DNA of 64,000 nt, taken from contig JAUCBJ010008580.1 of NCBI GenBank assembly GCA_032718475.1, positions 15,958 through 79,957 on the forward strand. The letters are read 5' to 3'. Below the pieces are notes generated by a model, which did no database searches, was not told the DNA's origin, and saw nothing but the letters and a program-made list of their open reading frames with translations. The stretch comes from Nemertoderma westbladi (Eukaryota; Animalia; Xenacoelomorpha). The translations under genes and the position numbers were made by a program. The stretch's first letter is position 1; every line of letters begins with the position of its first letter. Shown in pieces: positions 34,437 through 54,068 of the stretch.

Positions 34437-34758
34437 TTAAAGGCCACCAATTATTCTACAAATCTTAACGCCTAAGAATATTTATTTTCACTTTCAAACC
34501 TTTTTAACTACAAGCGTTTGAAAAGTGTTTTATTGAGTCTATTTAATTACTATCTATTAGGGAGAAGGGGGGGGGGGGGGGGACTGGACGCAAAACCCCT
34601 TCTTGGCGAATTAATATCCCGCCTTGATGAATTATTTCACTATAAGGTAGCATTTGTAGTTTAACTTTAACGTAAAAACTTTTGAAAATCCGACGTATTT
34701 TGATTAAGTTACAGTAATGTAATATGCCTATTTATATTTGTACACATAAAACCCTTAG

Positions 34759-34849
34759 GTACTCTCGTGGCGTAGTGGTCAGATGGTTAAGGCGTTGGTT
34801 ACATTACGTAGGTTATGAGTTCGAATCCCAGTCGGGAAATTTGTATTTT
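34759..34849 (+). ncRNA. tRNA-like Pol III cassette in the LTR (not a canonical tRNA); second copy at ~51924-52014
   Basis: A box TGGCGTAGTGG, tRNA-Ser/Leu-like TGGTTAAGGCG, B box AGTTCGAATCC, then TTTT. Confidence 0.55.
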
Positions 34850-34883
34850 GGGGCAATTTATTTTCGTGTGGTGCTAATTGATA

Positions 34884-35131
34884 GGCCAATGAGAAGCGTA
34901 CAGCGTAGCGAATAATGAGCCAGGCCAATCATAGGGCATAAATTACCTTATTGCTCAAATGTGAGGCAGTGGAAAATTCTGTTAGGATTCCATGTCCCAG
35001 ATTAGTGTAAGGGCTGGACTGCGTTGAACGATGAGCTGGGCCAATCATAGGGCACGACGCACTTCATTGCTCAATTGTGAAGCTGTGGAAATTTCTGTTT
35101 AGTTTCCATGTGCAATTTCTAGTATATAAGG
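34884..35131 (+). promoter_or_regulatory. Putative Pol II promoter in the LTR: three GCCAAT boxes and a TATA box
   Basis: GGCCAAT at ~34884, ~34923 and ~35039 within duplicated enhancer-like units; TATATAAG at ~35123. Confidence 0.55.
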
Positions 35132-36897
35132 CCGGTTTGCCTTCGGTTATGACTTCTACCCCCTTCGCTTCCAACGTTACTCTATCAGTTTACTTTTGTA
35201 AAATTAGTTAATTCGGTTTCTTGTTGAAACTTGTTTGATAAATCCTTTGTTAAAACTGTAAATATACTGCAATTTCCTGACATGTTTTCCTTTGGTCCGA
35301 CTTCGGGACAGCCGAACACCAGGGAGATGGCAGCCTAGACCGTTAGGCCATAAGCAACGCAGGGAAGGGATGTCCACAACACGCTAGCGCCCACATTGGA
35401 TCGACCGCGCACCCCCTTTGCCCCCCTTCGAAATGCTCAACTTGCCATGCAGCGCCCGCTTTGTGAGAAAGGTAAGACTTTGTTCGACGCCCTTGCCCGC
35501 CGTAAGACCTATAGATCAGGGTAAGCGTGACACCGCACTGGACGCCGCAAATTTAGGATCAAATAATTATATCCAGACACCCCCCCCCCTTCTTGTCAGT
35601 CCTACGAACCCCTGGGTTAACCTGTACTTCCTACAGGTGCGAACTATTGCCATTCGTCAGTACGCGAGTACACATTAGGCACGGACAGCATATGTTCCAT
35701 AATTTAGTGAGTCGTAGCACTGACTGTTTGGTACCGGTTCGCTTTGTAGAACGTACATTAGTACCCCCCCCCCCCCCTTGTCTGGAGTTAGCTATTTGAT
35801 CAGGCAAGGAGTATTTCTGCTACCGGCACACTGCTTGGCCTAGGGAGGTTTATTAATATCCTACCGCGCCTTGCCACGTACTGATAGGTATTGCTGCTAA
35901 CTACCGCAGCAACAAAGTTCTAGAATTAAATTAGTATACCAGATCAGCTAACGTACGGTAGCGATTAACCCCTATTCTTATCTTACAACCAGAATCTGGT
36001 ATTAGTGCCGATCACGGGTGTAGTTACTAACACTGTGGTTGCCCATTGGGTTGTGGATAGGAAGGAGAGAGCTTTGACGTCATTCGTGAGTATAAAGTTC
36101 TACAAACGCGACTAGTTTATTTTAGTAGCTAGCGCACGGTATCATTTTAGTCAGAAAATCACTAAAACCTAGTAAAAGGAATTACCCGAAATTGTTTTAT
36201 TTGTAACACACCCACACACACACGCCCTAAAACATATCGCCCTTAAAGTTCTACTAGCTATAGCGTACTATACATTACGTTAGGTGGAAATTATTTGTAT
36301 TTGTACAATTAGGATCTGATTTGATTGCGGCAAGATAAGGAGTATTTCACTTTCGTTATTAAACTGTTGTTTGTCTGGACAACGGTATTGTTACATTTAG
36401 GCCTGACCCTTTAGACTGATTTCGTACAGGGGGATCAGTTATTGTTACATTTAGGTACGACCCCTTTTCGACTGATTTAGGACTGTCAGTGTTGTTACGC
36501 TAGGTCTGTTAACCCACTAGCTCGTATATAACCCATATAAATCACACCGCGGCAAGTTACTGTATTTAGGACTGTCAGTGATAGTTAGGATTCGCTGCGT
36601 GGGGATTGTTTTCCCGTGAGTTTGGTCTGTTACGGTAACTGTACATCTGCCTCACCGGTTAGAGGACAGGTATCCTTCTGTCTAGTACGTAGGCATTAGA
36701 CCCGCTCACGTACATAGAATAGATACAAGGCTCTGTTCCTCGCCAGTAGTCGTTTGTGTACTATATCTGTTTGTTTAGATATCCTGGACTGGGATTTGTT
36801 TTCAGATACTGTACAAGCCCGTATACATTACTAGAGTCTCATAGTAAGATACATCGTTACTAGGATCTGGTAAGCGGTATACTACTGGACCCTTACA

Positions 36898-37803: not shown

Positions 37804-40800
37804 ATGAGTGACACACCCCATTCGACGAGATACCCACCTACCGACTATGACTCGTGCGACCCGGACAGATCGACAGTAGACGAACCTAGAAGGAGAACCC
37901 GAGATTCCACCGATGTCACACCGCTTGCGTCGCCGGTACCCCAAACGGAAATACCGGAAGCCGCAACGCGTGGCGACGGCAGAATCGAAGATTTCCTTAC
38001 CGTCCCGCAGACTAGATCGCGGGAACCGGACATGGTAAGTTCGACTGGGAGCCAGGAGAACGTTATTAGAAGTATAGGAGGACACATGGCCCAGATTACT
38101 CGGAACCTCGGAGAAGGTTTTCGCGTTTTACGCGAGTTAACCGCCCCGATGTCGAGATACGAGTTCTACACCTTACAGGTAAGGATAGAAAGTAGGGTAC
38201 ATGCCTCCGTAGATAAACTTAAAGGTTTGCACGAACTTGCAGAGTTGCGTGGCGACAACTTTACTCAGGTAAAGATAGTGGATAAATTGGTAAGTGCGAG
38301 AGAAAGCATTATCCAGTTTAAGTCGGTAATAAGCTTGGCTCAACAGGAGCAGTTCGACCAACTGCTAGGTGAGTCAGTTTCGGACGCGTTGTTACAACCC
38401 GAAGAGGAAGAAGAACTCTACTGCCTGGACGGAAGGTTGGAAACGCTGACCAATTTTCTTCGTAGATGCGGCGTACCGATCGACGAACCGGAAGTCGAAC
38501 CGCGAGGGACGACGGAAGTTCTCACTACGGAAGGCTCGCGAGCCTACCAACATCCACCACTGGATAGATCGTTCGTTAGCGTACGGAGCGACGTTGGCAA
38601 CGTTGGCGACGTTAGTAGAACAGCGTCTGGAATTACTCGACAACAACAGGAGGTTGCACGCCGACAACAAGTCGCCGAGGAAGAAGCGCGACACCAGATG
38701 GCACAGATCGCCATCGAAGGAGAGAAACAACGTAGAGAAGACGAGGCAAAAATTGCACAACTCAAGGCGCAAGCTGAATTCGAAGCATCAGAAATGCGCA
38801 GATTGGAGGAAGACTTAGCGCGAGAAGCGGCCGCGGCGGCAGCAGCGGACGAGTTAGCACGGAAGAAAGCAGCATCAGACGCTCGTGCCAAGTTGGAGGC
38901 GCGGCAAATAAACGCTCGATTAGCTATACAGGAAGCGGAATTAGCGGCACAACAACAGGACGCAGATCGACGCGAAAGGGAGATGCAACTACAGTTCGAA
39001 TTGAATCGTAGATCGCGCGAGACAGCGAACGCGCAAGCGGACCTCGAACTCGACGCGAGAGATAGATCTATGAGATCGCGGACTGGACACGACTTGTCTG
39101 CCCTGGATCGTATGGAAGCTCGATATCGCGGAATACAGAAGCGGATCGAGGAAGGAAGCGTGGGAGCGATAGATCGAGGAGAGGAGTTCGTCGAGGATTA
39201 CTGTAAACGTTTTCCCCAAGTTATTCCTATGCTCAAACCCACGACTCCGATAAAACCGGTCTTCGTTACGAAACCTAAGGAAATAACGCCAGTGCGTTCG
39301 ACGCAAGGCAACAGGTTTGTTGTGACGGAAATACCGCAACCTAGGGCGACTTCATCGCCAATTTTAGCAGGTAACGTTACTAGTCCACCTACAGTAAGTC
39401 GTAGTCTACTTGTAGGAAGAGAGGAACCTGCGTTTATGACCATTAAACAGGTGAGTAAACCATTACAAGTTAAACCTGTGACGTGCTGTGCAAATCCAGT
39501 TATTTACAGACCGACTACGAAACCCGACTATTTCACTCGACCGTTGACACAATGTTCGACGCAACCTACGACTTCGTGGAAGGCTTGCGAGCCTACCGAA
39601 CTACGAAGGAGGATGGATGTGGGTAGTACTCACGGGATCGGACAACGTATAGCGAGACCTACGACTTCGTGGAAGGCTTGCGAGCCTACCGAACGACGGA
39701 GAGCCGTAGATTCCGGACCACAACGGACGAGACCCAGGATAATACGCCGGACACGAACCCGCCAGCCACCTTATCCGGACGACAGCGATTCATCTAGTGA
39801 CTCGGAGTCGACGGAACGGGAAATATTCCGTACTGGAGCGGCGGAAGATTGTAAACGGGAGGAACGATCGACGAATCCATACATCGACAATCCTCCACGA
39901 GAAACACCCCAACAGAAACCCACGTTGAAACCAGCGGAAACGATCAGCGCTAAACAGTTCACCGAGATGACGGACAGAATAGCTCAACTCGAAGAACGAC
40001 TCGAAGCGCAACCGTCGGATCGATCACGGACCAGCGTGGAATTGGAACAACCTAGACAACATCGACCACCGAGGAGAGAACAGGAGACTAGACGGACTCC
40101 GACACATCGAGAGGAAGATCCCGTTAATAATTCCTACCGACGAACAACGCGCGGAAGGGAGCGACTGGACGACGCCACCGAACAAGGACGCGGACAGTTG
40201 GATTTAGTTAGCGAGATTGCGAAATTCGCGGCTAGACACGGATTACCGGCACAGCAACCGCCGAAGTTCTCTGGCAACGCGAAACACTGGCGCACACTGG
40301 TAGACTACGTAGAGTCCCAGATCGCTAAGTGTGCTTTCACCTCGACGGAGAAGTTTAACTACTTGCTCCAAGTCCTGTCTGGTGAGCCGAAACGATTAGC
40401 GGAAACCTTTATAGGTGTTCCCGATGCCTTCGAGTTGGCGTACGACCGTTTGTATTCGATTTACGGCGGTAATGTCGCCATGGCTAAATCCATCATAGAA
40501 GACCTCTGCAGAGGAGGCAACATTTCGAGACCGATCGATCTTTTACGACTCGCGGACGAAATAAAGAACGCTATAGGGACTTTACGGTCCATTGGGCAAC
40601 TCGAGTACGCTAACGCACCGACGGTTCTCATTCGAATAATCGGTCGACTTCATCATCGACTACGACGAGAATGGCGACGCATCGAGTACCAGCGCGAAGA
40701 GGCCGGAGGGTTATTAAAACTCACCGATGTCTATCAACTTATTTCACGGGAGGCCGTGATCGAGACTCGATCGAACTATACCGATCACCATATCGCGGCG

Positions 40801-43800
40801 GAAGGGATAACTGTTTCTGCGCCGAATCGGACTAAACCATTTCCGACGAACGCGAAAGCCGTTACTTACGCCACCCCTACTGAGACTTCTAAAGTTCTGA
40901 CGCCTATCGGCACCACGCAGCCACGACAACAGTTGCCGGCGGACTTTGTGGGATGCTCATACTGCGAGCGGAACGGCAGAAACCATAGCGGACATAAACT
41001 ACGTGCATGTCGCGCTTTTAAAGAGTTAGGGATCGAGGAGAGGAGACTCCAAATCCGATCTCTAGATTCCTGTTGGAGATGTATGAAGCCAGGACACGTC
41101 CGGAAGGATTGCCCGAGCGATGATACATGTTCTTTGTGTGGACGTAACCATGACGCGTTGCTTCACACAACCAGTCATACTCCGACCCGACGCTTTCGAC
41201 GAGAGCATCCAGATAAAGCGGCTAGATGCGACGCGCTTTATAAGGAGCGTGCGCCGCGCGAGATCCGTACCTTTTATACCGACTGTATGGATCAGTCAGG
41301 ATCATCGGAAGAGGACGAGGAGGAAGACGACACTTTCTACGTGCATGCAGGTGAGGAACAACCATCGATAACGCTCCTCACACAGAACCAATTGAAAGGG
41401 TTTAGCGTGATTCCTATAAAGATTACCGGGACCCGAGGGAGCAAGCGTATATACGCCATCTTAGACTCTGCGTCATCGCATAGCTATGTCGACGAACAAG
41501 TAGCCGACGTAGTTACGGACTTGAGTCAAGGTAAGACTGCTCAGTATACTGTAAGCAGCATGCATGGTAAGAGAGCGATTCCTGTGACAAGAGTAAAACT
41601 AACTTTAGACACTCTTCTTTCCAAAGCGGAACACAGCAAGGAGGAGCGCTCATTACTTCCGGTAAGAAATTTGACCTTTGCAGCTACGAAGGACTTTAGT
41701 AACTTGCTCGGCCCTGTGCCAGAGCAATCTCCGGAAGATCGTAAGTATTTCCGACACCTTGGAATACCGGAATGTCCTGTCAATTATCGTTCCATTGCGA
41801 TGTTAATTGGGACAGACCAGTTTAACTTACATCAGGTATGGGAGACACGCCCATCTGTTATTACAGCGGGCAACCCCTACGCATGTAGAACTCCCATAGG
41901 TTGGTATACTAGAGCACCAATACGTTCACTAGAGGTAAGTGACCAGGAGGACGACGTTTTGAGTACGTGTAGTTTATTGACTAACACGATAGATAATTCT
42001 CCCTCACACTCCTGTGGTCCAATTGTACGGACGGCACTACGACAGACTTGCGTCACTAACGCAGACGCCACCGATACTGACGTAACCGATCTGGACACGA
42101 CCATACGGACCTCTGACTTACAACTACTTGCAGTAGACCAGGTTGTATTGACTACTGAAGACCTGAGGGTTGTTGCTGTGGATGACTCGATGAACGAGGA
42201 TTTTGGAAGGCTTGCGAGCCTACCGAAAAATCCGAAGGTCATTGACCCCACCCACCAGGCTTCGACACCGGTCGTTGATCTTGGAAGGCTTGCGAGCCTA
42301 CCGATAGATCAAGAAGTTGTCAAACCGCCGCACGACAATTCGACGCCGACTAGTGACACCGGAAGGCTTGCGAGCCTACCAGACACATTGACACTAGCCA
42401 CCGCAGCGGACGAAGACGTGGACGAGGACCATGGCGCAGTGCAAGCAGCGCTTGACCGACTGCTGACTGAACGGACCATACAATGGTTGGAACAGGACTC
42501 AGCAGAACCCGGTAGTTACGAGACCGCTATGTCAGAACAGGAAAAACGGTCATTAAATATTATGAGAGATACCATTCGCCAGACCGCGAATGGCCACTAT
42601 GAGGTTGGTATGTTGTGGTGCAATGGACAACCTAAGCTCGTTAACAATTACCCGCTTGCTTTGAGGCGACTCAAATCAATAAGGCAGCGATTGTTGCGAG
42701 ACGAGACGGCCCATATGCAATACAATGCACAACTTCAGACGTATCTCCAAAAGGGATACGCCATTAGGATGTTAAATCCTGAGGTAACTACAGACCAGAC
42801 ATATTACCTGCCACATCATTTTGTTCGACACCCGGACAAACCTGGCAAGGTGCGTGTAGTCAACGACTGCGCTGCACTTTACCAAGGGATGTCTATGAAT
42901 AGCGAACTGATGGACGGGCCGAATATGAACAATTACCTCATGGGAGTCCTAATGCGTTTTAGACAACGCAAAGTGGCTTTCACCTGTGACGTAGAGGCCA
43001 TGTTTCACCAGGTTAAGGCTTTGGAGCGGGACAGGGACAGTTTGAGGTTTCTTTGGTATCCGGACGGAAACTTACAACTTCCGCCAGAAACTTACCAAAT
43101 GCAGGTAAGAGTATTTGGAGCCAGGGACAGCCCCAACTGCACCATGTACGCATTGAAGCAGACAGCATTAGACAGACGAGACCAATTTGACCCAGAAGTA
43201 GTTCGGACCATGGAACGAGACTTCTACGTGGATGACGGCCTCAAGAGTTGTGACACCTTGGAGCGCGCTACAACCGTAGCACACCAACTCCAGGATTGTC
43301 TCGCTGAGGGCGGATTTCACCTGACGAAGTTCGCTTCCAACGAACCCGAACTGGTGAACTCATTTGACCCGATGGACCGTAGCGGAGGTGACTTGGACTT
43401 AGACCTAGAACCTCTGCCGACGACCAAAGTACTAGGACTTAGTTGGGACCCTAACACCGACAATTTTAGGGTACGTGTAAGGTCCAACGACCAGACTAGA
43501 CCTCTCACTAAGAGGACTTGCTTATCGACCATGAGTCGATTGTATGACCCATTGTGTTTCATTAGTCCAGTGATCCTACATGCCAGGATCATACTCCGCA
43601 GCATTTGGCAAGCCGGACTGGAATGGGACGATCCCATCCCAGAAAAGTTAGCTGAGCGATGGAGGGACTGGGAAGCCCAACTGACGTTCCTACAAGACTA
43701 TACCATACCAAGGGTATACTTTCCTTTGCAAACCACCTTTCCTGCCGATTTAGAGCTTCACAGCTTTAGTGACGCTAGCAAGGATGGATTGGGGGTTACT

Positions 43801-46644
43801 TTATACCTTAGACGACAAGTGACATCGGACAGCTACGATGTATCTCTCGTTACTTCAAGGGCTAGAACAATGCCATTGAAGTATATGACTGTACCTCGTG
43901 GGGAGCTGCAAGCCGGGACGATATCCACCGATATTGTCAGTCTAGTTCAACGCGAGCTGGAGGCTAACTTGAAGGTCACATATTGGACGGATGCGACGTT
44001 GGTACTTTGGTACATAAACAACGAAACATTTGAGTTCAAGACTTTCGTAGCCAACAGACGGGCTGAAATACTAGACCGGTCGCTCAAACAAGATTGGCGT
44101 CACTGTCCAGGGAAGCTGAACCCAGCTGACATCGCGTCACGGGGAATGCAACCACTTGACTTTTGTAAACCGGACAATAAATCCTTTTGGTTTAGAGGAC
44201 CCGATTTCCTACAGCGACCATCAGACGAATGGCCACCGTTATTCGACGCGACAACCAACACCATACCAGAGGGTGCCGAGATAAAACTCGACAAGGTTGT
44301 CAAGTCTAAAGCGAAAGCCAACGCCAAGGTCAAGAGGAAAAAGGGACGGACGAAATCTGATGACCTGGACGCCAGACCTGACATTACGCCAGACGTCTCG
44401 CCAGACACTCGACCAGACGCTTGTACGAATCCTTCGCCGGATGTTCCGCGGGAGATTTCACCAGACGTTTCGCCGGATTGTTCACCAGATTACTCGCCAG
44501 ACTATTCACCAGAAGAGACACCAGATTGTTCTCCGGATTGTTCGCCAGATTGTTTGATGGAACTCTCGACAGAATGTCTACCGGACATCTCACCAGATTG
44601 TTCACCAGACATCTCGACCGACTGTCCACCAGACTTTGAATCAGACTTTCTGACAGAAGTTGCGCTAGACAGACTTTGGGACCGACGACCGGACATTTCG
44701 CCGGATGTTCCGCGCTATGTCTCACCAGACGTCTCACCAGACTGTTCACCAGACGCTTCACCAGACTGTCTACTAGATACTCCATTAGAAGACCCATTGG
44801 AGCGGACTTTTAGAGACGTACTAAATTTGACTTCTTTGGACGACAAAGGAGTAGCCACAGGGATTACACTCCGCTCGAAGAAGGTACTTGACTTACCTAC
44901 AGGTAAAGTGGTGACTAAGGTTAGGAAGCTTACAGGCTCACAGGAACACACTGACACTGTAGAGTTGAAACCATTACTGCCAGTCGACATATTAGGTGCG
45001 GACGGCAAAGGTAAGACCGTAGAGATTGACGTACTTGGGGACTCAGACAAACCTACCGGAAGGCCCGTGGGCCTACCAAGTCCAGACAAGTATCCACACT
45101 ACGACTACACCTTACCCGATGACGTCACTAACACTTACGTAGACAGGATAGTGAACCTAACTAGATCATGGACTGACGCGTGCCGCAAGTTAGCATGGCT
45201 CAAACGATTGAGACAATATGCCAGAGGCAAACGCGACTTTCCTAGAAGACTTACCTTAAAGGAAATTGAACACTGTGAAGTTGATATCATTCGACATTAT
45301 CAATTGCGATATTTCGCACGAGAGTTCACAGCGATCAAACAAGGTAAACAGATTAAGTCTTCACCGATTTTGAGTTGGAGTCCGATTATTTACCGGGGCT
45401 TACTTTGTCACAAGTCCAGACTCCAAAACATCGACTTTGCACTTGACTTTAGGTATCCTATCATCATACCGCAACACCATGAGTTACAGCGCGCTATGAT
45501 ACTGGACGCACATGTACAACTCAAACACGTAGGTAGACACCACTGTCTATCACACTTACGCTCGAGGTTTGTACTGATTAGACCTAGTAAGGCACTGAGT
45601 TCAGTAACACGGAACTGTATTATTTGTAAGAAGGTGCACGCGAGGATAGGACACCAAGAAATGAGTGAACTACCATTAGCTAGATTACAGGCATTTAGAC
45701 CCCCTTTCACTGAGACAGGGATAGACTGTTTTGGACCCATAATCGCGAAACGCGGAAGGGTACAGGTAAAACGTTGGGGATTGATCTTCACTTGCATGGC
45801 CAGCAGAGCTGTCCATATAGAGCGAGTGACAGACTTGTCCACCAATGCCTTTATCCTAGCCTTACGGCGATTTATCGCTAGACGTGGATTGGTCAAATCC
45901 ATATACTGCGACCAAGGGACAAACTTTGTGGGTGCACGGAACGAGATAACCAGAGCTTTGAGAAAATTGGACCAAAACCAGATTTCCGAGGAACTACGTC
46001 CTCACCGTATTGTTTGGTTTTTCAATACTCCAGACAGTCCGTGGAGAGGCGGCGTTTGGGAAAGGCTGATTGGCTCAATAAAGACAGCTATGGCTAAAGT
46101 CGTACCGACGCAACACATCTTGACAGACGACCAACTGACGACGTTACTAATAGAAATCGAAGCAATCTTAAATACCAGACCGATCGCTTTGATCCCACAC
46201 AATAACGACGTACAGTTTGCCTTGACACCAGCGCACCTGCTTATGCAGGCGCCGACGACACTGTTGCCCATTTCGGTACCCGTTGATAGTGACGGATACG
46301 GCAACAAGGCTTGGAAAATCACTCAATTACTTGCAAATAAATTCTGGGAAATATGGCAGAAATATTATTTGCCCTCTATTTCGACCAGAACCTCTTGGTA
46401 TATAAATACCCGGTGTTTAAAACGTGGTGACCATGTTTTATTGGCTGAAGCCAATCTGAGAAGACGGTTTTGGCTGACTGGAGTCATTTTGACCACGCAC
46501 CCTACATCTGGTGTAGTGAGGACAGTTACTGTACGGACTATCGACGGACGTACCGTAGATAGGCCTGTACAACGTCTCGTACTCCTCGAGGAGACTAGAA
46601 ACGAGACGGGAGACTACAAATCTCCACCCAATATTAGTAAATAG
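37804..46644 (+). CDS. BEL/Pao Gag-Pol polyprotein, 2946 aa, uninterrupted
   Basis: Gag PKFSGNAKHW..EKFNYLLQVL; three knuckles (CSYC..H..C, CWRCMKPGHVRKDC, CSLCGRNHDALLH); protease AILDSASSHSYV; RT FTCDVEAMFHQV, FYVDDGL; RNase H HSFSDAS, RGELQA, WTDAT, NPADIASRG; integrase HHCC, GIDCFGP, CDQGTNF, WERLI. Confidence 0.97.
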   Translation: MSDTPHSTRYPPTDYDSCDPDRSTVDEPRRRTRDSTDVTPLASPVPQTEIPEAATRGDGRIEDFLTVPQTRSREPDMVSSTGSQENVIRSIGGHMAQITRNLGEGFRVLRELTAPMSRYEFYTLQVRIESRVHASVDKLKGLHELAELRGDNFTQVKIVDKLVSARESIIQFKSVISLAQQEQFDQLLGESVSDALLQPEEEEELYCLDGRLETLTNFLRRCGVPIDEPEVEPRGTTEVLTTEGSRAYQHPPLDRSFVSVRSDVGNVGDVSRTASGITRQQQEVARRQQVAEEEARHQMAQIAIEGEKQRREDEAKIAQLKAQAEFEASEMRRLEEDLAREAAAAAAADELARKKAASDARAKLEARQINARLAIQEAELAAQQQDADRREREMQLQFELNRRSRETANAQADLELDARDRSMRSRTGHDLSALDRMEARYRGIQKRIEEGSVGAIDRGEEFVEDYCKRFPQVIPMLKPTTPIKPVFVTKPKEITPVRSTQGNRFVVTEIPQPRATSSPILAGNVTSPPTVSRSLLVGREEPAFMTIKQVSKPLQVKPVTCCANPVIYRPTTKPDYFTRPLTQCSTQPTTSWKACEPTELRRRMDVGSTHGIGQRIARPTTSWKACEPTERRRAVDSGPQRTRPRIIRRTRTRQPPYPDDSDSSSDSESTEREIFRTGAAEDCKREERSTNPYIDNPPRETPQQKPTLKPAETISAKQFTEMTDRIAQLEERLEAQPSDRSRTSVELEQPRQHRPPRREQETRRTPTHREEDPVNNSYRRTTRGRERLDDATEQGRGQLDLVSEIAKFAARHGLPAQQPPKFSGNAKHWRTLVDYVESQIAKCAFTSTEKFNYLLQVLSGEPKRLAETFIGVPDAFELAYDRLYSIYGGNVAMAKSIIEDLCRGGNISRPIDLLRLADEIKNAIGTLRSIGQLEYANAPTVLIRIIGRLHHRLRREWRRIEYQREEAGGLLKLTDVYQLISREAVIETRSNYTDHHIAAEGITVSAPNRTKPFPTNAKAVTYATPTETSKVLTPIGTTQPRQQLPADFVGCSYCERNGRNHSGHKLRACRAFKELGIEERRLQIRSLDSCWRCMKPGHVRKDCPSDDTCSLCGRNHDALLHTTSHTPTRRFRREHPDKAARCDALYKERAPREIRTFYTDCMDQSGSSEEDEEEDDTFYVHAGEEQPSITLLTQNQLKGFSVIPIKITGTRGSKRIYAILDSASSHSYVDEQVADVVTDLSQGKTAQYTVSSMHGKRAIPVTRVKLTLDTLLSKAEHSKEERSLLPVRNLTFAATKDFSNLLGPVPEQSPEDRKYFRHLGIPECPVNYRSIAMLIGTDQFNLHQVWETRPSVITAGNPYACRTPIGWYTRAPIRSLEVSDQEDDVLSTCSLLTNTIDNSPSHSCGPIVRTALRQTCVTNADATDTDVTDLDTTIRTSDLQLLAVDQVVLTTEDLRVVAVDDSMNEDFGRLASLPKNPKVIDPTHQASTPVVDLGRLASLPIDQEVVKPPHDNSTPTSDTGRLASLPDTLTLATAADEDVDEDHGAVQAALDRLLTERTIQWLEQDSAEPGSYETAMSEQEKRSLNIMRDTIRQTANGHYEVGMLWCNGQPKLVNNYPLALRRLKSIRQRLLRDETAHMQYNAQLQTYLQKGYAIRMLNPEVTTDQTYYLPHHFVRHPDKPGKVRVVNDCAALYQGMSMNSELMDGPNMNNYLMGVLMRFRQRKVAFTCDVEAMFHQVKALERDRDSLRFLWYPDGNLQLPPETYQMQVRVFGARDSPNCTMYALKQTALDRRDQFDPEVVRTMERDFYVDDGLKSCDTLERATTVAHQLQDCLAEGGFHLTKFASNEPELVNSFDPMDRSGGDLDLDLEPLPTTKVLGLSWDPNTDNFRVRVRSNDQTRPLTKRTCLSTMSRLYDPLCFISPVILHARIILRSIWQAGLEWDDPIPEKLAERWRDWEAQLTFLQDYTIPRVYFPLQTTFPADLELHSFSDASKDGLGVTLYLRRQVTSDSYDVSLVTSRARTMPLKYMTVPRGELQAGTISTDIVSLVQRELEANLKVTYWTDATLVLWYINNETFEFKTFVANRRAEILDRSLKQDWRHCPGKLNPADIASRGMQPLDFCKPDNKSFWFRGPDFLQRPSDEWPPLFDATTNTIPEGAEIKLDKVVKSKAKANAKVKRKKGRTKSDDLDARPDITPDVSPDTRPDACTNPSPDVPREISPDVSPDCSPDYSPDYSPEETPDCSPDCSPDCLMELSTECLPDISPDCSPDISTDCPPDFESDFLTEVALDRLWDRRPDISPDVPRYVSPDVSPDCSPDASPDCLLDTPLEDPLERTFRDVLNLTSLDDKGVATGITLRSKKVLDLPTGKVVTKVRKLTGSQEHTDTVELKPLLPVDILGADGKGKTVEIDVLGDSDKPTGRPVGLPSPDKYPHYDYTLPDDVTNTYVDRIVNLTRSWTDACRKLAWLKRLRQYARGKRDFPRRLTLKEIEHCEVDIIRHYQLRYFAREFTAIKQGKQIKSSPILSWSPIIYRGLLCHKSRLQNIDFALDFRYPIIIPQHHELQRAMILDAHVQLKHVGRHHCLSHLRSRFVLIRPSKALSSVTRNCIICKKVHARIGHQEMSELPLARLQAFRPPFTETGIDCFGPIIAKRGRVQVKRWGLIFTCMASRAVHIERVTDLSTNAFILALRRFIARRGLVKSIYCDQGTNFVGARNEITRALRKLDQNQISEELRPHRIVWFFNTPDSPWRGGVWERLIGSIKTAMAKVVPTQHILTDDQLTTLLIEIEAILNTRPIALIPHNNDVQFALTPAHLLMQAPTTLLPISVPVDSDGYGNKAWKITQLLANKFWEIWQKYYLPSISTRTSWYINTRCLKRGDHVLLAEANLRRRFWLTGVILTTHPTSGVVRTVTVRTIDGRTVDRPVQRLVLLEETRNETGDYKSPPNISK
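44371..44770 (+). repeat. In-frame 12-bp minisatellite encoding (S-P-D-x)n between RNase H and integrase
   Basis: SPDV/SPDC/SPDY/SPDI units; TCNCCRGAY repeats. Confidence 0.9.
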
Positions 46645-47382
46645 ATGTGGGACCTTGGTTGGCCGCCACATAGACCTACTGTATTTTAGTTATTTGTATT
46701 TGTATTACTGTACGTGCATTTGTAATCCTCTTCACTGTAGATAGAGACAGCGGTGGAATTCCATTGTCTTTATACGTGAACATGGAGGGTAGTACCCTTA
46801 TGTATCACATAGGAGCGGGATTGTGTGTACAGTAGGAATGGAATTCCACTTGGAACCCACAAGTGAGACATTTTCAAAAATTATTAGACAAATCCATTTA
46901 TTTGGATTTAAATTTAAGAAAAACGATTCTCCAGTGAAAGCAAATTCTAGAATACAGCTAGAAAAAAAAAAAAATTAAAATTGGGGAGGACAAGAGCGGA
47001 TGGAAGGCTTGCGAGCCTACCGATAAATTTTTTTTGGAAAAGAAAATCGGTCTTGTTCTACGTAGTCGTGTCTACTATTATTTTGACCAATTAATTCTCG
47101 ACTGCACTATTTTTCTTGGAAAACGTAGTTTGGGAAATTAAAAGGTGAGTATTTTAGACTCGCGGCTAGTTTACCCGGAATTCGTTTTTTATCGGCACAA
47201 TTTTGGATTAGGAGCCAGTGCGAAATTACGCGAACCCGAAATCATTAGGCAAAATGGGTTGGGGTTTAGAGCAGAGTTGAGCCAAAAGCCGACAAACTCT
47301 GAAGTCACCTCACATCTAACCTCTATTTTGTGCTTCATCTAGTAGAAACGTAACGATATGTAACCACATATATTCGTATACA

Positions 47383-50300
47383 ATGGAGAAGATGTATAAA
47401 GAGTTACGTCAAGGGTTTACGCAAGAACAGGAGCACCAGGCGCCATTTAATCGTTATGGAGCTAAAAACTTTAGTGTGTTTGGAGTGGAGAGTATGGCTA
47501 GGAGTACAGCCAAGCTCGCTAAATCCAAGGCGGACCCGAATGTTACGCGACAGCGGTTGGACGCATACAACAAAAGAACGGAGGAATTACGCGCGGAATA
47601 CAATGCGTTATATCCCTACGATGCGTTATGCGACGCTAGCGACATTTGCGAGGATCCAGACACCGAAATACGCCGATTGTATCATACGCTGCAATATTTG
47701 ACGGTAAACGAACCTTTACCTGCAGCTAGAGACGAATTTGAAGGAATGCATCTTTATAGACGCGCTCGAGGAGCGGATCCAGAGACCAAGGATGCGTTTT
47801 CCGTATATAAACTGTTCTATAAATGCGGAGCGTGTATGCGCGAGCAAGACAACGCGATTCCTATGCGGTTGAACTCGGAGAACCCCGAGCCGATATTAGC
47901 GCGATGTTCACACCACCAAAGTCTACGTTATCAAGAAGGCGGATACCCTTTGACAAACCCGTATCATTCGTTTAAGATGAGTGGACCAAACGCGGGTGAA
48001 ATTGTTATTTACGAACCAAAATTAGTCGAACCAGACGTCTACAGTATGGTAGTGGACGAGTCTAATAAGTCGACACAAGAGAAACGGGAAGCTTTGAGCC
48101 TCTACAGGGCGTACAAGGCGTACGAGAAAGGCGAGATCGAGGAGTTCGGCGGAAGGCTTGCGAGCCTACCATTCTATTGGATATCCCACGATCAAACCGA
48201 ACCCAAGGAGATGACACCCGAGCTCTTCGATAGTATCACCTTTGCTCAGCGTTTGTCGCAGAGACTACAGATACCTCACGTTGAGATGACGCGAGAACCT
48301 CAGCCCCATTCTACTGGAGCAATAGTACCGGTTGCGAGACCAACTAGTTTTCCTATTAGTATACCGACCCGGAAGGAGACAACTTACGAGATCCCTATAG
48401 TTGAACACCCGGAGATCATCTCGAACCTGGATTTCCTCCCATCGGTCACCTTCGGTGATGTGTTAGAATCAACCGAGTTGCGTAAAGTAATAGTTCAAAA
48501 AATCGTACGCAACGTGCCTCCACATATCACGGACTTTAAGGAAGTGGATCGCGCGGGGACGGATATCGCACCTTGTATCTTGCGAGGATATCTGACGAAA
48601 ACGATTCGATTATGGATCGGAGTTGGGACGTTTGAGACCGACACCGATATCGCGACCAATTGGACTGGTAAACCTATTAGTTTCGATGATGAAAAGTCGA
48701 TCGGGAGAATTTGGAACCCTACCGATGATTTACTCGACGATTGGGACGTGACTAGCCGATCTCTAAAAGAGAATGGATATATGTTTTACGATAATGAAGG
48801 AGGAAGCCATCAGCAAAGCCTCACTTCAAAGACGATACAGATTAGAGCACCAGATGGCGTGTTACATGTCTTCAGCCGACAGAGGAGTGATAGGAAGATG
48901 CCTATGCCGGAAGGAACGACGCAAAGACACGCGATGATAAAACGGATAGTTAAATCCATGGACCTGGCTTGTAGCATAGAAGCTAGGATGTTGCCAAAGG
49001 CCGTACGAGACGTTGTGTTGGATAAGAGCATCGTCAAGATCGGATCCGGTGTACGGGATGACCTCATTAGCGACTTTGCAGGGATGCCCACGGAAGAGGA
49101 CCGATTGCCTACGCCATACGTGGATACTAGACCATTGTTGCTTTGGGCTATTAAGCAAGGATACTTTAGAGAGTATAACACGCTAAAAACTGGGACGGGT
49201 TATATCTCATATCTGATGTTCAGTTGGGATTACAAGGAGAGTAAGAGGAACAAATACACGGACGTATACGGAGAGGGAGATACCCCCGGCGTAAACGAGT
49301 TCGAGTCACAGTTGAAGTGGCGAGGTTGCGTGTATTGGGCGATTACTTCACCTCCGCGGATAATCTTGCAATATTATTTAGCGATAGAATCTTCGGTTAA
49401 CGTTTGTTTCATCGCGGACGTAGTATCCAGAACCTTAAAGCGACACCCGTTATGTCTTGGCGAAGGACATACCTTTTACGATGGAGGAAGGACGCATACT
49501 GATGTATTCCGACGATTTCTCCAACCCTTTTATAACACCGATGCGCACTGCGAAGTTTTCACGCGAGCGGGACTTAGCGTTTTCAGGGACGTCTATCTCA
49601 CTCACGCGGGAAGTCTAGTCGACAGACCGTCGATGTTAACGTTAGTACCCTATGACGGGGAACGCCACGCGGAATTCGAACGCCCGGAAGGATCCTGGAA
49701 GGCTCGCGAGCCTACCGCCCATCATGACGATGTGGATCCGACCGAGTTGGCGCTAATAGACGAACCGTTACGGCAACTCATAGAAATAGAAGAGAACCTT
49801 CCAAGGAAGACGCGAACTGAGATACGCGAGTTAGAGAAAAGCGATGCCATGGTTTGTGTACAACCTACGGAGACGAACATACCGACTGACCCGGATGATG
49901 AGAATTATCACGTGGACGGTAGCGCTCGCCCCATCGGAGACCTCATCTATGAGCGAGTTTGGTATCCTGCCAACACTATTTGTGGCAGATGTGGAGCAAC
50001 TGGCCATCACGCAAAGAAGTGCGGAGCGAAGCACATATCTCTACCGGATTTAGTATGCAACTGGTGCGGGGATCAACGTTCGCACACTTTCTACACTTGC
50101 TGGCGTTTCGTGGCGCAGTGTACTTATTGTAATATTAAGGGCCATAGGGCATCGGAATGTCAACTTAGAGACGTCCCCTATGAGCACATGTCAGTTAAAA
50201 TCGTTCGACAATTATTCGACCATTGGGAGGACCTAGCAGACGAGCATGTATCGACGCAGCGACGCCGCTTCCCTATGAGAGCACATTTGGGATTTTGGGC

Positions 50301-51135
50301 CGTAAACCCTCTCATAATGTCAAAGGAAGGATATGTATCGGCTATGCCTCAGTACGATGAATTGTTGGAGGTATTGGATATATTGCCGTTGGACAGTGGA
50401 TTCAAGGTTGTGCGGGATTATTTCTTACAAGTGCACCCCGACAACAAGAATACTTGGAACTTTCAAACTGTGGTGAACAAGATTACCGCCGGAGAATTCG
50501 ATAAACTGCGAGTTGAACAGCGGAATCGAGGAGCCTGGCATTCGATAGCTTGGGCATACCGGAGCGCATTTTATCACAAACGCGTAACCTCGTGCATTCT
50601 GGACGAGACCGACGTTTTGCGTGAGACTGGCTTCAAGGCCACGCCGTTAGCGGAGAAGACGCGTCACCCACAGGATGATCAGCAATTTCGTATACTCAAA
50701 GCCCAAAAGGCCGGACAAGAGATTAAGAAGATAGTGAATGTCGCCGAGAGGACGACATCGAAGTCGCAAATCCGGATGACTCGGGGCACGGTTTCCCTTG
50801 CTAGAGAACCACGCGGAGGGACAGGATACGCTTTGACTGAACCCATTAGGATTCAAACGACGTCAGAGAGCGAGGTGTCAACGGACGGAACAGTCCTACC
50901 CTTTCGACTTCCTCCTAGCGTTGTAGAAACTCGATCCGATATTAAGTCGACAGTTGGAATCGGACGAGGATTTAGAGGATTGAGCGCACGACGGATGTGC
51001 GAAACCCCCGTCGTCCCCTTTCCTAGCGTTTTGGAACCACCGACAACTCGACGCCGAAGTCCGAGCCCTGTTCGACCTCGACCACCCCCCAATCGCACTA
51101 GAGGACGTGGACGAGCCCGCTCAGCGAAGGAATAG
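47383..51135 (+). CDS. Accessory ORF2 (1250 aa): putative DEDDy 3'-5' exonuclease-like domain, 3 CCHC zinc knuckles, Arg/Ser/Pro-rich tail
   Basis: ExoI MFYDNEG..KTIQIRAPDGVLHVF (48781); ExoII LPKAVRDVVLDKSIVKIGSGVRDDL (~48990-49065); YVDTRPL; ExoIII-like W..TSPP..LQYYLAIE (~49335-49390); knuckles CGRCGATGHHAKKC, CNWCGDQRSHTFYTC, CTYCNIKGHRASEC (49981-50160); no signal peptide or TM segment seen. Confidence 0.85.
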   Translation: MEKMYKELRQGFTQEQEHQAPFNRYGAKNFSVFGVESMARSTAKLAKSKADPNVTRQRLDAYNKRTEELRAEYNALYPYDALCDASDICEDPDTEIRRLYHTLQYLTVNEPLPAARDEFEGMHLYRRARGADPETKDAFSVYKLFYKCGACMREQDNAIPMRLNSENPEPILARCSHHQSLRYQEGGYPLTNPYHSFKMSGPNAGEIVIYEPKLVEPDVYSMVVDESNKSTQEKREALSLYRAYKAYEKGEIEEFGGRLASLPFYWISHDQTEPKEMTPELFDSITFAQRLSQRLQIPHVEMTREPQPHSTGAIVPVARPTSFPISIPTRKETTYEIPIVEHPEIISNLDFLPSVTFGDVLESTELRKVIVQKIVRNVPPHITDFKEVDRAGTDIAPCILRGYLTKTIRLWIGVGTFETDTDIATNWTGKPISFDDEKSIGRIWNPTDDLLDDWDVTSRSLKENGYMFYDNEGGSHQQSLTSKTIQIRAPDGVLHVFSRQRSDRKMPMPEGTTQRHAMIKRIVKSMDLACSIEARMLPKAVRDVVLDKSIVKIGSGVRDDLISDFAGMPTEEDRLPTPYVDTRPLLLWAIKQGYFREYNTLKTGTGYISYLMFSWDYKESKRNKYTDVYGEGDTPGVNEFESQLKWRGCVYWAITSPPRIILQYYLAIESSVNVCFIADVVSRTLKRHPLCLGEGHTFYDGGRTHTDVFRRFLQPFYNTDAHCEVFTRAGLSVFRDVYLTHAGSLVDRPSMLTLVPYDGERHAEFERPEGSWKAREPTAHHDDVDPTELALIDEPLRQLIEIEENLPRKTRTEIRELEKSDAMVCVQPTETNIPTDPDDENYHVDGSARPIGDLIYERVWYPANTICGRCGATGHHAKKCGAKHISLPDLVCNWCGDQRSHTFYTCWRFVAQCTYCNIKGHRASECQLRDVPYEHMSVKIVRQLFDHWEDLADEHVSTQRRRFPMRAHLGFWAVNPLIMSKEGYVSAMPQYDELLEVLDILPLDSGFKVVRDYFLQVHPDNKNTWNFQTVVNKITAGEFDKLRVEQRNRGAWHSIAWAYRSAFYHKRVTSCILDETDVLRETGFKATPLAEKTRHPQDDQQFRILKAQKAGQEIKKIVNVAERTTSKSQIRMTRGTVSLAREPRGGTGYALTEPIRIQTTSESEVSTDGTVLPFRLPPSVVETRSDIKSTVGIGRGFRGLSARRMCETPVVPFPSVLEPPTTRRRSPSPVRPRPPPNRTRGRGRARSAKE

Positions 51136-51169
51136 GAAGCGAGTGGAAGGAAGGCTTGCGAGCCTACCG

Positions 51170-51280
51170 ATTTGGATATTATATTTGGATATTATATTTG
51201 GATATTATATTTGGATGTTATATTTGGATATTTTATTTGGATATTTTATTTGGATATTTATATTGGACATTATGTTTGAA
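51170..51280 (+). repeat. 13-bp tandem repeat (TTTGGATATTATA), ~8 copies
   Basis: Directly visible in the 3' UTR of element C, between two hairpin motifs. Confidence 0.85.
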
Positions 51281-51782
51281 TGTTGGGTTTGGAGGAGCGA
51301 GATATGGAAAGGAAGGCTTGCGAGCCTACCGTTAGCAATTAGTGCTCAGGAGAAGATATCCAGACCAGCAGGACGAACTTTTAAGATCGTCAGGAGGACA
51401 TTATTGAAAATTATTAGCGCATTATGTTTATATTATATTTGGACTGATTTAATTTGGTGAAGGTTTATTATGTATATTTACAATATATAAAGATTTATCG
51501 AAAGAGTTGATTTATTTGTTTGATTTGTTTGAATTATTTGTTTTGATTTGTTTATTTGCTTATATTGATAACCGAAAGCCTTTTTTTGTATTTTAGGCAC
51601 TAAAGTTAATTCGTAAATTTGTATGTACGATCGATTGTATTTACGCCGTATCTGCAATATTAAGTATGCAATGATTAGATAGTGATTATATTTTATATTT
51701 TAGGCCCTACCAGTAAATTTAGAAATAGTTTGTAGATATTTTATATTTGATTGGTGAAAACAGTCTTACTTACTGTTTTCAT

Positions 51783-51789: not shown

Positions 51790-54068
51790 TGATGAATTAT
51801 TTCACTATAAGGTAGCATTTGTAGTTTAACTTTAACGTAAAAACTTTTGAAAATCCGACGTATTTTGATTAAGTTACAGTAATGTAATATGCCTATTTAT
51901 ATTTGTACACATAAAACCCTTAGGTACTCTCGTGGCGTAGTGGTCAGATGGTTAAGGCGTTGGTTACATTACGTAGGTTACGAGTTCGAATCCCAGTCGG
52001 GAAATTTGTATTTTGGGGCAATTTATTTTCGTGTGGTGCTAATTGATAGGCCAATGAGAAGCGTACAGCGTAGCGAATAATGAGCCAGGCCAATCATAGG
52101 GCATAAATTACCTTATTGCTCAAATGTGAGGCAGTGGAAAATTCTGTTAGGATTCCATGTCCCAGATTAGTGTAAGGGCTGGACTGCGTTGAACGATGAG
52201 CTGGGCCAATCATAGGGCACGACGCACTTCATTGCTCAATTGTGAAGCTGTGGAAATTTCTGTTTAGTTTCCATGTGCAATTTCTAGTATAAAAGGCCGG
52301 TTTGCCTTCGGTTATGACTTCTACCCCCTTCGCTTCCAACGTTACTCTATCAGTTTACTTTTGTAAAATTAGTTAATTCGGTTTCTTGTTGAAACTTGTT
52401 TGATAAATCCTTTGTTAAAACTGTAAATATACTGCAATTTCCTGACATGTTTTCCTTTGGTCCGACTTCGGGACAGCCGAACACCAGGGAGATGGCAGCC
52501 TAGACCGTTAGGCCGTAAGCAACGCAGGGAAGGGATGTCCACAACACGCTAGCGCCCACATTGGATCGACCGCGCACCCCCTTTGCCCCCCTTCGAAATG
52601 CTCAACTTGCCATGCAGCGCCCGCTTTGTGAGAAAGGTAAGACTTTGTTCGACGCCCTTGCCCGCCGTAAGACCTATAGATCAGGGTAAGCGTGACACCG
52701 CACTGGACGCCGCAAATTTAGGATCAAATAATTATATCCAGACACCCCCCCCCCCCCCCTTCTTGTCAGTCCTACGAACCCCTGGGTTAACCTGTACTTC
52801 CTACAGGTGCGAACTATTGCCATTCGTCAGTACGCGAGTACACATTAGGCACGGACAGCATATGTTCCATAATTTAGTGAGTCGTAGCACTGACTGTTTG
52901 GTACCGGTTCGCTTTGTAGAACGTACATTAGTACCCCCCCCCCCCCCCTTGTCTGGAGTTAGCTATTTGATCAGGCAAGGAGTATTTCTGCTACCGGCAC
53001 ACTGCTTGGCCTAGGGAGGTTTATTAATATCCTACCGCGCCTTGCCACGTACTGATAGGTATTGCTGCTAACTACCGCAGCAACAAAGTTCTAGAATTAA
53101 ATTAGTATACCAGATCAGCTAACGTACGGTAGCGATTAACCCCTATTCTTATCTTACAACCAGAATCTGGTATTAGTGCCGATCACGGGTGTAGTTACTA
53201 ACACTGTGGTTGCCCATTGGGTTGTGGATAGGAAGGAGAGAGCTTTGACGTCATTCGTGAGTATAAAGTTCTACAAACGCGACTAGTTTATTTTAGTAGC
53301 TAGCGCACGGTATCATTTTAGTCAGAAAATCACTAAAACCTAGTAAAAGGAATTACCCGAAATTGTTTTATTTGTAACACACCCACACACACACGCCCTA
53401 AAACATATCGCCCTTAAAGTTCTACTAGCTATAGCGTACTATACATTACGTTAGGTGGAAATTATTTGTATTTGTACAATTAGGATCTGATTTGATTGCG
53501 GCAAGATAAGGAGTATTTCACTTTCGTTATTAAACTGTTGTTTGTCTGGACAACGGTATTGTTACATTTAGGCCTGACCCTTTAGACTGATTTCGTACAG
53601 GGGGATCAGTTATTGTTACATTTAGGTACGACCCCTTTTCGACTGATTTAGGACTGTCAGTGTTGTTACGCTAGGTCTGTTAACCCACTAGCTCGTATAT
53701 AACCCATATAAATCACACCGCGGCAAGTTACTGTATTTAGGACTGTCAGTGATAGTTAGGATTCGCTGCGCGGGGATTGTTTTCCCGTGAGTTTGGTCTG
53801 TTACGGTAACTGTACATCTGCCTCACCGGTTAGAGGACAGGTATCCTTCTGTCTAGTACGTAGGCATTAGACCCGCTCACGTACATAGAATAGATACAAG
53901 GCTCTGTTCCTCGCCAGTAGTCGTTTGTGTACTATATCTGTTTGTTTAGATATCCTGGACTGGGATTTGTTTTCAGATACTGTACAAGCCCGTATACATT
54001 ACTAGAGTCTCATAGTAAGATACATCGTTACTAGGATCTGGTAAGCGGTATACTACTGGACCCTTACA
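51790..54068 (+). repeat. 3' LTR of BEL C (2279 bp)
   Basis: Direct repeat of the 5' LTR; differs in two poly-C lengths and ~4 substitutions. Confidence 0.97.

What the first reader, a model, noticed from the sequence alone, without database searches (positions are those of the whole stretch)
38529..51330. Twelve copies of a 20-nt stem-loop overprinted on coding sequence in all three frames
Seen: GGAAGGCTTGCGAGCCTACC (GG-A-AGGCT-[TGCG]-AGCCT-A-CC) at 38529, 39578, 39671, 42205, 42283, 42361, 45058, 47002, 48151, 49697, 51149 and 51311. All are in sense orientation and I noticed none in the LTRs. It is read as EGSRAY, WKACEPT or GRLASLP depending on frame and also occurs in non-coding spacers, so the constraint is on nucleotides, not protein. 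Variants change only the loop (CGCG) or swap a stem pair compensatorily (AGGCC-CGTG-GGCCT at 45058). Copies stay exact while flanking repeat units diverge (78-nt spacing at 42205/42283/42361). Inference: a multivalent cis-acting RNA element (packaging, export/localisation, or a binding site for Gag or ORF2 knuckles), or a near-palindromic DNA site.
Basis: partly seen in the sequence, partly recalled or inferred. Interest (0 to 1): 0.88.

Follow-up and report, generated by a model that had tools for sequence, protein, structure and literature searches.

The report
Twelve self-pairing hairpins along a retrotransposon
A young, intact jumping gene carries twelve near-identical copies of one 20-letter self-complementary sequence spread along its whole interior, and these likely act as repeated landing sites on its RNA for a protein, probably one that the element encodes itself.

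Summary
Twelve copies sit at the stated places, all on the + strand, inside one young 19.4-kb BEL/Pao LTR retrotransposon; no other copy exists in the window. The constraint is on nucleotides: three reading frames plus spacers, identical cores in repeat units whose flanks are only 29-64% alike.

Corrections: coding copies lie only in poorly conserved linkers; the one 'compensatory' change is weak evidence; shared orientation does not separate RNA from DNA. The outer 14 letters, including an A-A mismatch, never vary; only the central six do, the reverse of typical protein-bound hairpin arrays. Each copy can also pair with any other copy.

The element has a second ORF with a DEDDy exonuclease-like domain (assigned through one homologue) and three zinc knuckles, a plausible reader. 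Best reading (0.45): a dispersed RNA docking signal that coats and routes the element's RNA. Main rival (0.25): an inverted-repeat DNA site. Conservation in other families was barely testable; nothing is shown experimentally.

No paper with this motif was found. This scan noted hairpin arrays in other retrotransposons before, mostly with conserved loops rather than conserved arms.

The parts
38529..38548 (+). copy 1 (C at position 9), ORF1 N-terminal extension, phase 2
39578..39597 (+). copy 2, ORF1 N-terminal extension, phase 1; 93-nt duplication with copy 3
39671..39690 (+). copy 3, phase 1
42205..42224 (+). copy 4, protease-RT linker, phase 0; first of three at 78-nt spacing; caps a predicted longer stem
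42283..42302 (+). copy 5, protease-RT linker; caps a predicted longer stem of different sequence
42361..42380 (+). copy 6, protease-RT linker
45058..45077 (+). copy 7, divergent centre (4 transitions), RNase H-integrase linker, phase 0
47002..47021 (+). copy 8, non-coding spacer between ORF1 and ORF2
48151..48170 (+). copy 9, ORF2 residue 257, phase 0
49697..49716 (+). copy 10 (C at position 9), ORF2 residue 772, phase 1, between exonuclease-like domain and knuckles
51149..51168 (+). copy 11, 3' untranslated region
51311..51330 (+). copy 12, 3' untranslated region
34625..36897 (+). 5' LTR, 2273 bp, TG...CA, preceded by a 5-bp target-site duplication; no motif copy
51790..54068 (+). 3' LTR, 2279 bp; 4 substitutions and 2 small indels against the 5' LTR; followed by the same 5-bp duplication
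37804..46644 (+). ORF1, uninterrupted gag-pol of 2946 aa: DUF1759, zinc knuckle, protease motif, RT, Peptidase_A17, integrase, DUF5641 (BEL/Pao)
47383..51135 (+). ORF2, 1250 aa, no transmembrane stretch (highest 19-residue hydropathy 1.48); candidate reader of the motif
48760..49392 (+). DEDDy (RNase D-like) 3'-5' exonuclease-like domain of ORF2, acidic motifs D-x-E, D, Y-x3-E; assigned through homologue P0121
   Evidence: direct profile tests not significant
49981..50160 (+). three CCHC-type zinc knuckles of ORF2
47315..47342 (+). predicted branch point, pyrimidine tract and AG upstream of the ORF2 start: ORF2 would be made from a spliced RNA (inferred from sequence only)
   Evidence: sequence

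Best explanation
The twelve copies lie in the linkers and untranslated gaps of one intact BEL/Pao retrotransposon, keep their outer 14 letters unchanged, and likely fold in the element's RNA into a short stem with a fixed A-A mismatch that a protein would read, most likely the element's own ORF2 product (exonuclease-like domain plus three zinc knuckles), so that the long RNA would be coated at intervals of 1-2.8 kb and routed for export and particle assembly. Shown: the copies, their placement, the invariance of the arms, the homology of ORF2 to a DEDDy-fold protein. Predicted: the hairpin (pair probabilities mostly above 0.8 in context), and that any copy can instead pair with any other copy into a 20-bp duplex that presents the same mismatch helix twice, which would let copies cross-link one RNA or two.
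For: Cores identical across three frames and spacers; given the peptide, the chance of these exact codons is 5e-5 to 1e-3 per site. Cores fixed while repeat flanks decay. All changes fall in the central 6 of 20 letters (p about 0.001-0.003); A3 and A18 are fixed in 12 of 12 though they cannot pair, which pairing alone does not explain. All three centre variants keep the hairpin and stay self-complementary on the + strand with G-U pairs; homo-duplexes are 13-20 kcal/mol more stable than two hairpins on +, and weaker on the minus strand for the two non-perfect variants. In 5 of 12 copies the own 25-nt flank extends the stem best of all 12 flanks (permutation p 0.038). Eight clusters are more evenly spaced than random (p 0.006). 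None lies in the LTRs. ORF2 matches P0121 (E 1.1e-4 among 1.84 billion; 30% over 178 aa and 28% over the knuckles), whose domain is RNase D-like. Precedents: a DEDDy domain binds a stem-loop with base-specific contacts in Egalitarian (10.1101/2025.08.03.668247, passages); a zinc knuckle binds a UGCG tetraloop in Rous sarcoma virus (PMC5035970, passages). One joint in run X4 (47909 to 49696, shorter side 21 letters) fits a relative that keeps the 20-mer amid unalignable flanks (a hint only).
Against: Covariation is one pair in one copy (46 of 500 shuffles reach it); two transitions at those positions are expected with p 0.4. Self-complementarity survives random transitions 33-67% of the time. 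The flank signal is absent at 15 nt (p 0.71), similar on the minus strand, and p 0.01-0.86 across 12 simulation settings; duplicated units are not independent. Even spacing partly reflects where linkers are. The loop is the variable part, so a loop-reading knuckle as in Rous sarcoma virus fits poorly, and in that virus the loop mutation did not reduce Gag selectivity. Direct profile tests of ORF2 against 25 bacterial PF01612 domains were not significant (hmmsearch E 0.21, hhalign 5%) and both folds failed (pLDDT about 30). None of 130 retrieved proteins carries the motif peptides, so the motif is not shown outside this family. No binding, structure probing or expression data.
Confidence: 0.45

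Rival explanations
1. The motif is a double-stranded DNA site, two 7-bp inverted half-sites around a 6-bp spacer, bound by a dimeric protein (ORF2 or a host factor) that keeps the integrated element open or transcribed along its length, as VANC proteins do for VANDAL transposons.
For: Invariant arms with a variable centre is the layout of a dimer operator (general knowledge). VANC21 motifs are arrayed in one orientation at high density and spread by tandem repeats (PMC5735166 abstract and section 8), so orientation does not exclude DNA. RNA covariation is weak.
Against: No copy in the LTRs. ORF2 has RNA or single-strand binding modules (DEDDy-like domain, CCHC knuckles), not a recognisable double-strand DNA binding fold. 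The half-site asymmetry is fixed in 12 of 12, and the two loop changes are those that G-U pairing on the + strand tolerates (weak, about p 0.2-0.25). Some copies cap bulged longer stems, which mean nothing in duplex DNA (borderline).
Confidence: 0.25
2. The copies work by RNA-RNA pairing alone: hairpins convert, with the Gag chaperone, into copy-to-copy duplexes that dimerise or compact the long genome at many points, like a distributed version of the retroviral dimer initiation site.
For: Any-to-any pairing needs identical arms, which explains invariant rather than covarying stems. Duplexes are favoured over hairpins, and neighbouring copies pair with each other in the minimum-energy folds of 3 of 3 multi-copy regions. 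HIV-1 DIS is a pseudo-palindrome that forms kissing and extended dimers (PMC7599994, passages).
Against: It does not explain why the unpaired A3 and A18 never change. The divergent copy at 45058 pairs less well with the major variant (7.4 against 15.5 kcal/mol gain). Tetraloops kiss weakly (general knowledge).
Confidence: 0.15
3. The hairpin is an RNA signal read by a host protein (transport, export or stability factor), and ORF2 is unrelated to it.
For: Egalitarian carries stem-loop RNAs including the I factor retrotransposon. ORF2 could simply be a captured exonuclease, as in rotifer LTR elements (PMC5408684, passages).
Against: Those host signals are 40-65-nt stems with little shared sequence; here the sequence is exact and family-specific. 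No Rfam family matches.
Confidence: 0.1
4. The copies have no function and are kept alike by recent duplication or template-switch homogenisation.
For: Three clusters arose by local duplication; all copies sit in regions of low protein constraint.
Against: Eight separate sites with unrelated flanks (median flank identity 26%), sharp 20-nt borders, and changes confined to the centre. Twelve direct repeats should cost deletions during reverse transcription (inference).
Confidence: 0.05

Closest known systems
BEL/Pao LTR retrotransposons (Belpaoviridae)
   Same: Single gag-pol ORF with DUF1759, Peptidase_A17, RT, integrase, DUF5641; TG...CA LTRs; 5-bp target duplication; 39-46% identity to the best 120 homologues over RT-RNase H.
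   Different: 19.4 kb; ORF1 2946 aa against mostly 1700-2200 aa in those homologues; long linkers holding the motif; a 1250-aa second ORF; no tRNA-type primer site.
Dispersed packaging signals of single-stranded RNA viruses (MS2 and others)
   Same: Many small stem-loops spread along a genome, also within coding sequence, bound cooperatively (PMC8472981, passages).
   Different: Those are degenerate low-affinity copies of one site; here copies are nearly identical, the arms are fixed and the loop varies, and the carrier is a retrotransposon.
Rous sarcoma virus psi SL-C (UGCG tetraloop bound by a zinc knuckle)
   Same: Same loop letters in 9 of 12 copies; knuckle proteins are encoded (PMC5035970, passages).
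   Different: One copy in the 5' leader there; twelve outside the leader here, and the loop is the part that varies.
HIV-1 dimer initiation site
   Same: Pseudo-palindromic hairpin able to form an extended intermolecular duplex (PMC7599994, passages).
   Different: Single site with a six-base loop palindrome; here twelve sites with a four-base loop.
VANDAL/VANC anti-silencing system of Arabidopsis
   Same: Transposon with an accessory protein and a family-specific motif in many same-orientation copies, partly spread by tandem repeats (PMC5735166).
   Different: 9-bp non-palindromic DNA motif in non-coding regions of a DNA transposon; here a 20-nt inverted repeat, mostly in coding linkers of a retrotransposon.
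DEDDy exonuclease ORF3 of bdelloid rotifer Juno and Vesta LTR elements
   Same: Extra 3' ORF with an RNase D-like domain in an LTR retrotransposon (PMC5408684, passages).
   Different: Other lineages; no triple knuckle and no repeated hairpin in the passages read ('hairpin' and 'stem-loop' occur 0 times in that text).

Membership tests
BEL/Pao LTR retrotransposon | Peptidase_A17, DUF1759 and DUF5641 in one gag-pol ORF, order protease-RT-RNase H-integrase | tested here: met
BEL/Pao LTR retrotransposon | TG...CA LTRs and target-site duplication | tested here: met
BEL/Pao LTR retrotransposon | placement in a named BEL/Pao clade by phylogeny | not tested
   no tree was built; most homologues carry no clade name
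Retroviral psi-type packaging signal | located in the 5' leader, on unspliced RNA only | tested here: not met
   no copy between the 5' LTR and 38529; 4 of 12 lie downstream of the predicted ORF2 acceptor; the splice itself is only predicted
Retroviral psi-type packaging signal | specific binding by Gag nucleocapsid | not testable with these tools
   needs binding assays
Dispersed packaging signals of RNA viruses | many stem-loops along the genome | tested here: met
   12 copies in 8 clusters; hairpin predicted
Dispersed packaging signals of RNA viruses | shared loop motif on freely varying stems | tested here: not met
   6 of 7 stem pairs never vary; variation is in loop and closing pair
Dispersed packaging signals of RNA viruses | coat-protein binding that drives assembly | not testable with these tools
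   needs experiments
Dimer initiation site (DIS-like) | self-complementary hairpin able to form an extended duplex | tested here: met
   predicted for all 3 variants on the + strand
Dimer initiation site (DIS-like) | drives genome dimerisation | not testable with these tools
   needs gels or probing
VANC-type DNA target array | many same-orientation copies of a family-specific motif | tested here: met
VANC-type DNA target array | bound as double-stranded DNA by an element-encoded protein that lifts silencing | not testable with these tools
   needs EMSA, ChIP, methylation data
DEDDy 3'-5' exonuclease family (ORF2 domain) | RNase D-like fold | tested here: inconclusive
   met for homologue P0121 (feature score 0.94, 25 of 30 hits PF01612; TM 0.57-0.61 by query); direct tests on ORF2 not significant and folds failed
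DEDDy 3'-5' exonuclease family (ORF2 domain) | D-E-D-D acidic tetrad with Tyr in motif III | tested here: inconclusive
   aligned to P0121, ORF2 has D-x-E, D and Y-x3-E, the last Asp read as Glu; two-sequence alignment only
Any Rfam family | match above gathering score | tested here: not met
   5 weak hits in 34000-55000, none near threshold, none a family for this motif

The most novel reading that the evidence does not exclude
A BEL/Pao retrotransposon has evolved its own self-recognition system: an accessory protein built from an exonuclease fold and three zinc knuckles reads a mismatch helix written twelve times into the element's RNA, and the same self-complementary sites cross-link the genome. 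This would be a retrotransposon counterpart of the accessory protein and response element pairs of complex retroviruses, but dispersed along the whole genome, and a natural multivalent RNA tag with its cognate binder.
Probability: 0.25. Interest if true: 0.85.

Novelty: new variant of a known kind. Interest (0 to 1): 0.62.

Why it matters
How BEL/Pao elements pick out, export and package their own RNA is, to my knowledge, largely unstudied; the searches here found no paper on RNA signals in this group. An exact 20-nt motif repeated twelve times, next to a candidate reader in the same element, makes the question testable with short RNAs and single protein domains. It would also give a job to the exonuclease-like extra ORFs of LTR elements, whose role is open (PMC5408684). 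If the DNA reading wins, it would be an animal retrotransposon analogue of the plant VANC anti-silencing system.

Tried and rejected
No genome is held for this window, so no genome-wide count. Pattern scans: 37 metagenome and 4 viral loci, each with one match, mostly GC-rich, none with a tblastn hit to ORF1 or ORF2; 120 prokaryote stretches (80 listed), each with one match: chance. No related locus in viral contigs for RT-RNase H or ORF2. ORF2 searches: none at E 0.001, one hit; no PDB, NCBIfam or PHROGs assignment, two non-significant phage hits for P0121. Both AlphaFold models unusable, so no fold search was run. Atlas search of the knuckle region gave leads under 0.9 only. Sequencing runs: no RNA holder listed. 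The read lay covered 36900-51190, 11 of 12 copies; only 40 of about 1625 differences were shown, none in a copy, but about 0.6 would be expected, so it is uninformative. Excess of 5' splice-site-like words in ORF1 (13 against 2.9 expected) is nearly matched on the antisense strand (10), so it was dropped. Protein-level constraint rejected (three frames, spacers). A shared orientation as proof of RNA rejected. The Gypsy element and the other BEL fragment in the window show no dispersed repeated hairpin. Host CpG decay does not obviously explain the centre changes: the internal region has CpG observed/expected 1.24. A tiny mobile insertion was considered: flanks show no shared duplication and there is no copy outside the element.


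Full report
Observation. The 20-mer occurs at all twelve stated places, on the + strand. Nine copies are exact, two have C at position 9, and the copy at 45058 has four transitions in the central six letters. Nothing else in the window comes within 6 mismatches, shuffles give none, and a covariance model finds no thirteenth copy: next best 11.6 bits against 34.5-41.5. No Rfam family covers it.

Carrier. The copies lie inside one LTR retrotransposon at 34625-54068. Its LTRs (2273 and 2279 bp, TG...CA) differ by 4 substitutions and 2 small indels and are flanked by a 5-bp duplication, so the insertion is young. ORF1 (37804-46644, 2946 aa) is an unbroken BEL/Pao gag-pol. Its best 120 homologues are 39-46% identical over RT-RNase H and mostly 1700-2200 aa long. 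Related sequence is laid in all four runs tried, with many variant contigs in X1 and X3, which fits a multi-copy family.

Placement. Nine copies are in coding sequence, in all three phases, and three are non-coding. All seven in ORF1 fall where at most about 10 of 120 homologues align: the N-terminal extension, the protease-RT linker and the RNase H-integrase linker. The two in ORF2 fall outside the stretches shared with its homologue. Merging copies closer than 200 nt gives eight clusters, 1.1-2.8 kb apart, more even than random (p 0.006), though the domain layout imposes part of that. None is in the LTRs or the leader.

Constraint. Given the peptides, the exact codons have a chance of 5e-5 to 1e-3 per site. 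In all five neighbouring pairs tested the cores are 20/20 identical while flanks are 29-64% identical; the median over all 66 pairs is 26%. The outer 14 letters never vary, including A3 and A18, which cannot pair. All changes lie in the central six (p about 0.001-0.003). This is the reverse of the usual protein-bound hairpin array, where the loop is kept and the stem covaries.

RNA or DNA. The hairpin is predicted at -7.6 to -9.6 kcal/mol and mostly survives in context. All three centre variants are self-complementary on the + strand if G-U pairs are allowed, so two copies can form a 20-bp duplex that is 13-20 kcal/mol more stable than two hairpins; neighbouring copies do pair with each other in 3 of 3 regional folds. 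Hairpin and duplex present the same mismatch helix. Against over-reading: covariation is one pair in one copy (46 of 500 shuffles; p 0.4 given four central transitions); random transitions keep self-complementarity 33-67% of the time; extension of the stem by the flanks is borderline (p 0.038 at 25 nt, 0.71 at 15 nt, similar on the minus strand; p 0.01-0.86 in simulations). Shared orientation does not decide, since copying during reverse transcription keeps orientation (inference) and the VANC21 DNA motif is also arrayed in one orientation (PMC5735166, abstract and section 8 read).

Candidate reader. ORF2 (47383-51135, 1250 aa) has three CCHC-type knuckles and no transmembrane stretch. It has one homologue among 1.84 billion representatives, P0121 (E 1.1e-4), which matches in two separate regions in the same order. 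The first region of P0121 is RNase D-like by features (0.94; 25 of 30 hits PF01612) and by predicted structure (TM 0.57-0.61). Aligned to it, ORF2 shows D-x-E, D and Y-x3-E motifs. Direct tests on ORF2 were not significant and both folds failed, so the assignment is transitive. A branch point, pyrimidine tract and AG precede ORF2, so a spliced RNA is inferred; it would keep four copies, and the unspliced genome all twelve.

Relatives. None of 130 retrieved proteins holds the motif peptides; all but cluster mates of the top hits are distant, so this shows only that the motif is not general to BEL/Pao. Scans of metagenome, viral and prokaryote collections gave single chance matches. The read lay covered 11 of 12 copies but listed only 40 of about 1625 differences, too few to test constraint. 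One joint in run X4 (47909 to 49696, shorter side 21 letters, the length of the motif plus one) fits a relative that keeps the motif amid unalignable flanks; which side is the short one is not stated, so it is a hint.

Mechanism. I favour (0.45) an RNA docking site: a protein reads the fixed mismatch helix, and twelve sites coat the long RNA for export and assembly, with copy-to-copy pairing as a possible extra. ORF2 is the likeliest reader because it carries two kinds of RNA-binding module and is as family-specific as the motif (inference). Precedents: Egalitarian binds stem-loop signals through a DEDDy domain with base-specific contacts, without needing catalysis (10.1101/2025.08.03.668247, passages); a Rous sarcoma virus knuckle binds a UGCG loop, although that loop was dispensable for Gag selectivity (PMC5035970, passages). 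Rivals: an inverted-repeat DNA site (0.25), RNA-RNA pairing alone as in HIV-1 DIS (0.15; PMC7599994, passages), a host reader (0.10), neutral homogenisation (0.05).

What is known. The carrier is a BEL/Pao member. The array works most like dispersed packaging signals of RNA viruses (PMC8472981, passages) but fails their shared-loop feature, and it fails the leader location of a retroviral psi. DEDDy extra ORFs are known from rotifer LTR elements, with function untested (PMC5408684, passages). The motif and its commonest peptide occur in 0 papers of the held library; searches for such arrays or such an ORF in BEL/Pao elements found nothing relevant in their listings. Subscription journals and supplements, where repeat libraries are often deposited, were not searched. 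This scan's own unchecked notes describe hairpin arrays in other retrotransposons, mostly with conserved loops on covarying stems, and none for this sequence.

Verdict. A real, strongly constrained, undescribed motif in an unusual giant BEL/Pao element with a plausible cognate reader. The RNA-versus-DNA question and the function remain open. New variant of a known kind; interest 0.62.

Noticed in passing
window 36898-36908 and 35624-35634: The element has no TGG-type tRNA primer site. The 11 letters right after the 5' LTR are exactly complementary to 35624-35634 inside the LTR; only 2 of 9702 other 11-mers of the interior have such a match in the LTR. This suggests Tf1-like self-priming (PMC6317226, passages). 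The scan noted the same in other BEL/Pao elements.
   Followed up: partly
window 35472-35637: Apparent intron inside the LTR (donor at 35472, acceptor ending near 35637); the 11-mer that matches the primer site lies two letters before the acceptor end. An initiator-like word at 35596 with a TATA-like stretch about 30 nt upstream is an alternative reading.
   Followed up: no
window 34760-34835 and the same place in the 3' LTR: tRNA-like stretch with A-box and B-box-like words in the LTR; ARAGORN makes no call and it does not fold as a cloverleaf. Possibly a captured Pol III promoter or SINE head.
   Followed up: partly
window 47383-51135: ORF2 is a near-orphan DEDDy-like plus triple-knuckle protein; P0121 (unnamed, 558 aa) has the same layout. 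Possibly an undescribed accessory protein family of mobile elements.
   Followed up: partly
window 44385-44790: 12-nt repeat encoding (S/C)PD-rich tetrapeptides inserted between RNase H and integrase.
   Followed up: no
runs laid on window 47942-51007: Run X4 holds a form that skips about 3 kb of ORF2: a possible internally deleted derivative.
   Followed up: no
window 15154-21335: A Gypsy-type LTR element with 425-bp LTRs, 99% alike, gag and pol in separate frames.
   Followed up: no
window 39-5888 (minus strand): A second, interrupted BEL/Pao element, 46% identical to ORF1 over RT, without the motif.
   Followed up: partly
window 9643-10665, 31937-32689, 33331-34101: Two satellite-like repeats of about 162-163 nt, one in mixed orientations, flanked by long G runs.
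   Followed up: no
window 61877-62498: A 620-bp element with long terminal inverted repeats, MITE-like.
   Followed up: no
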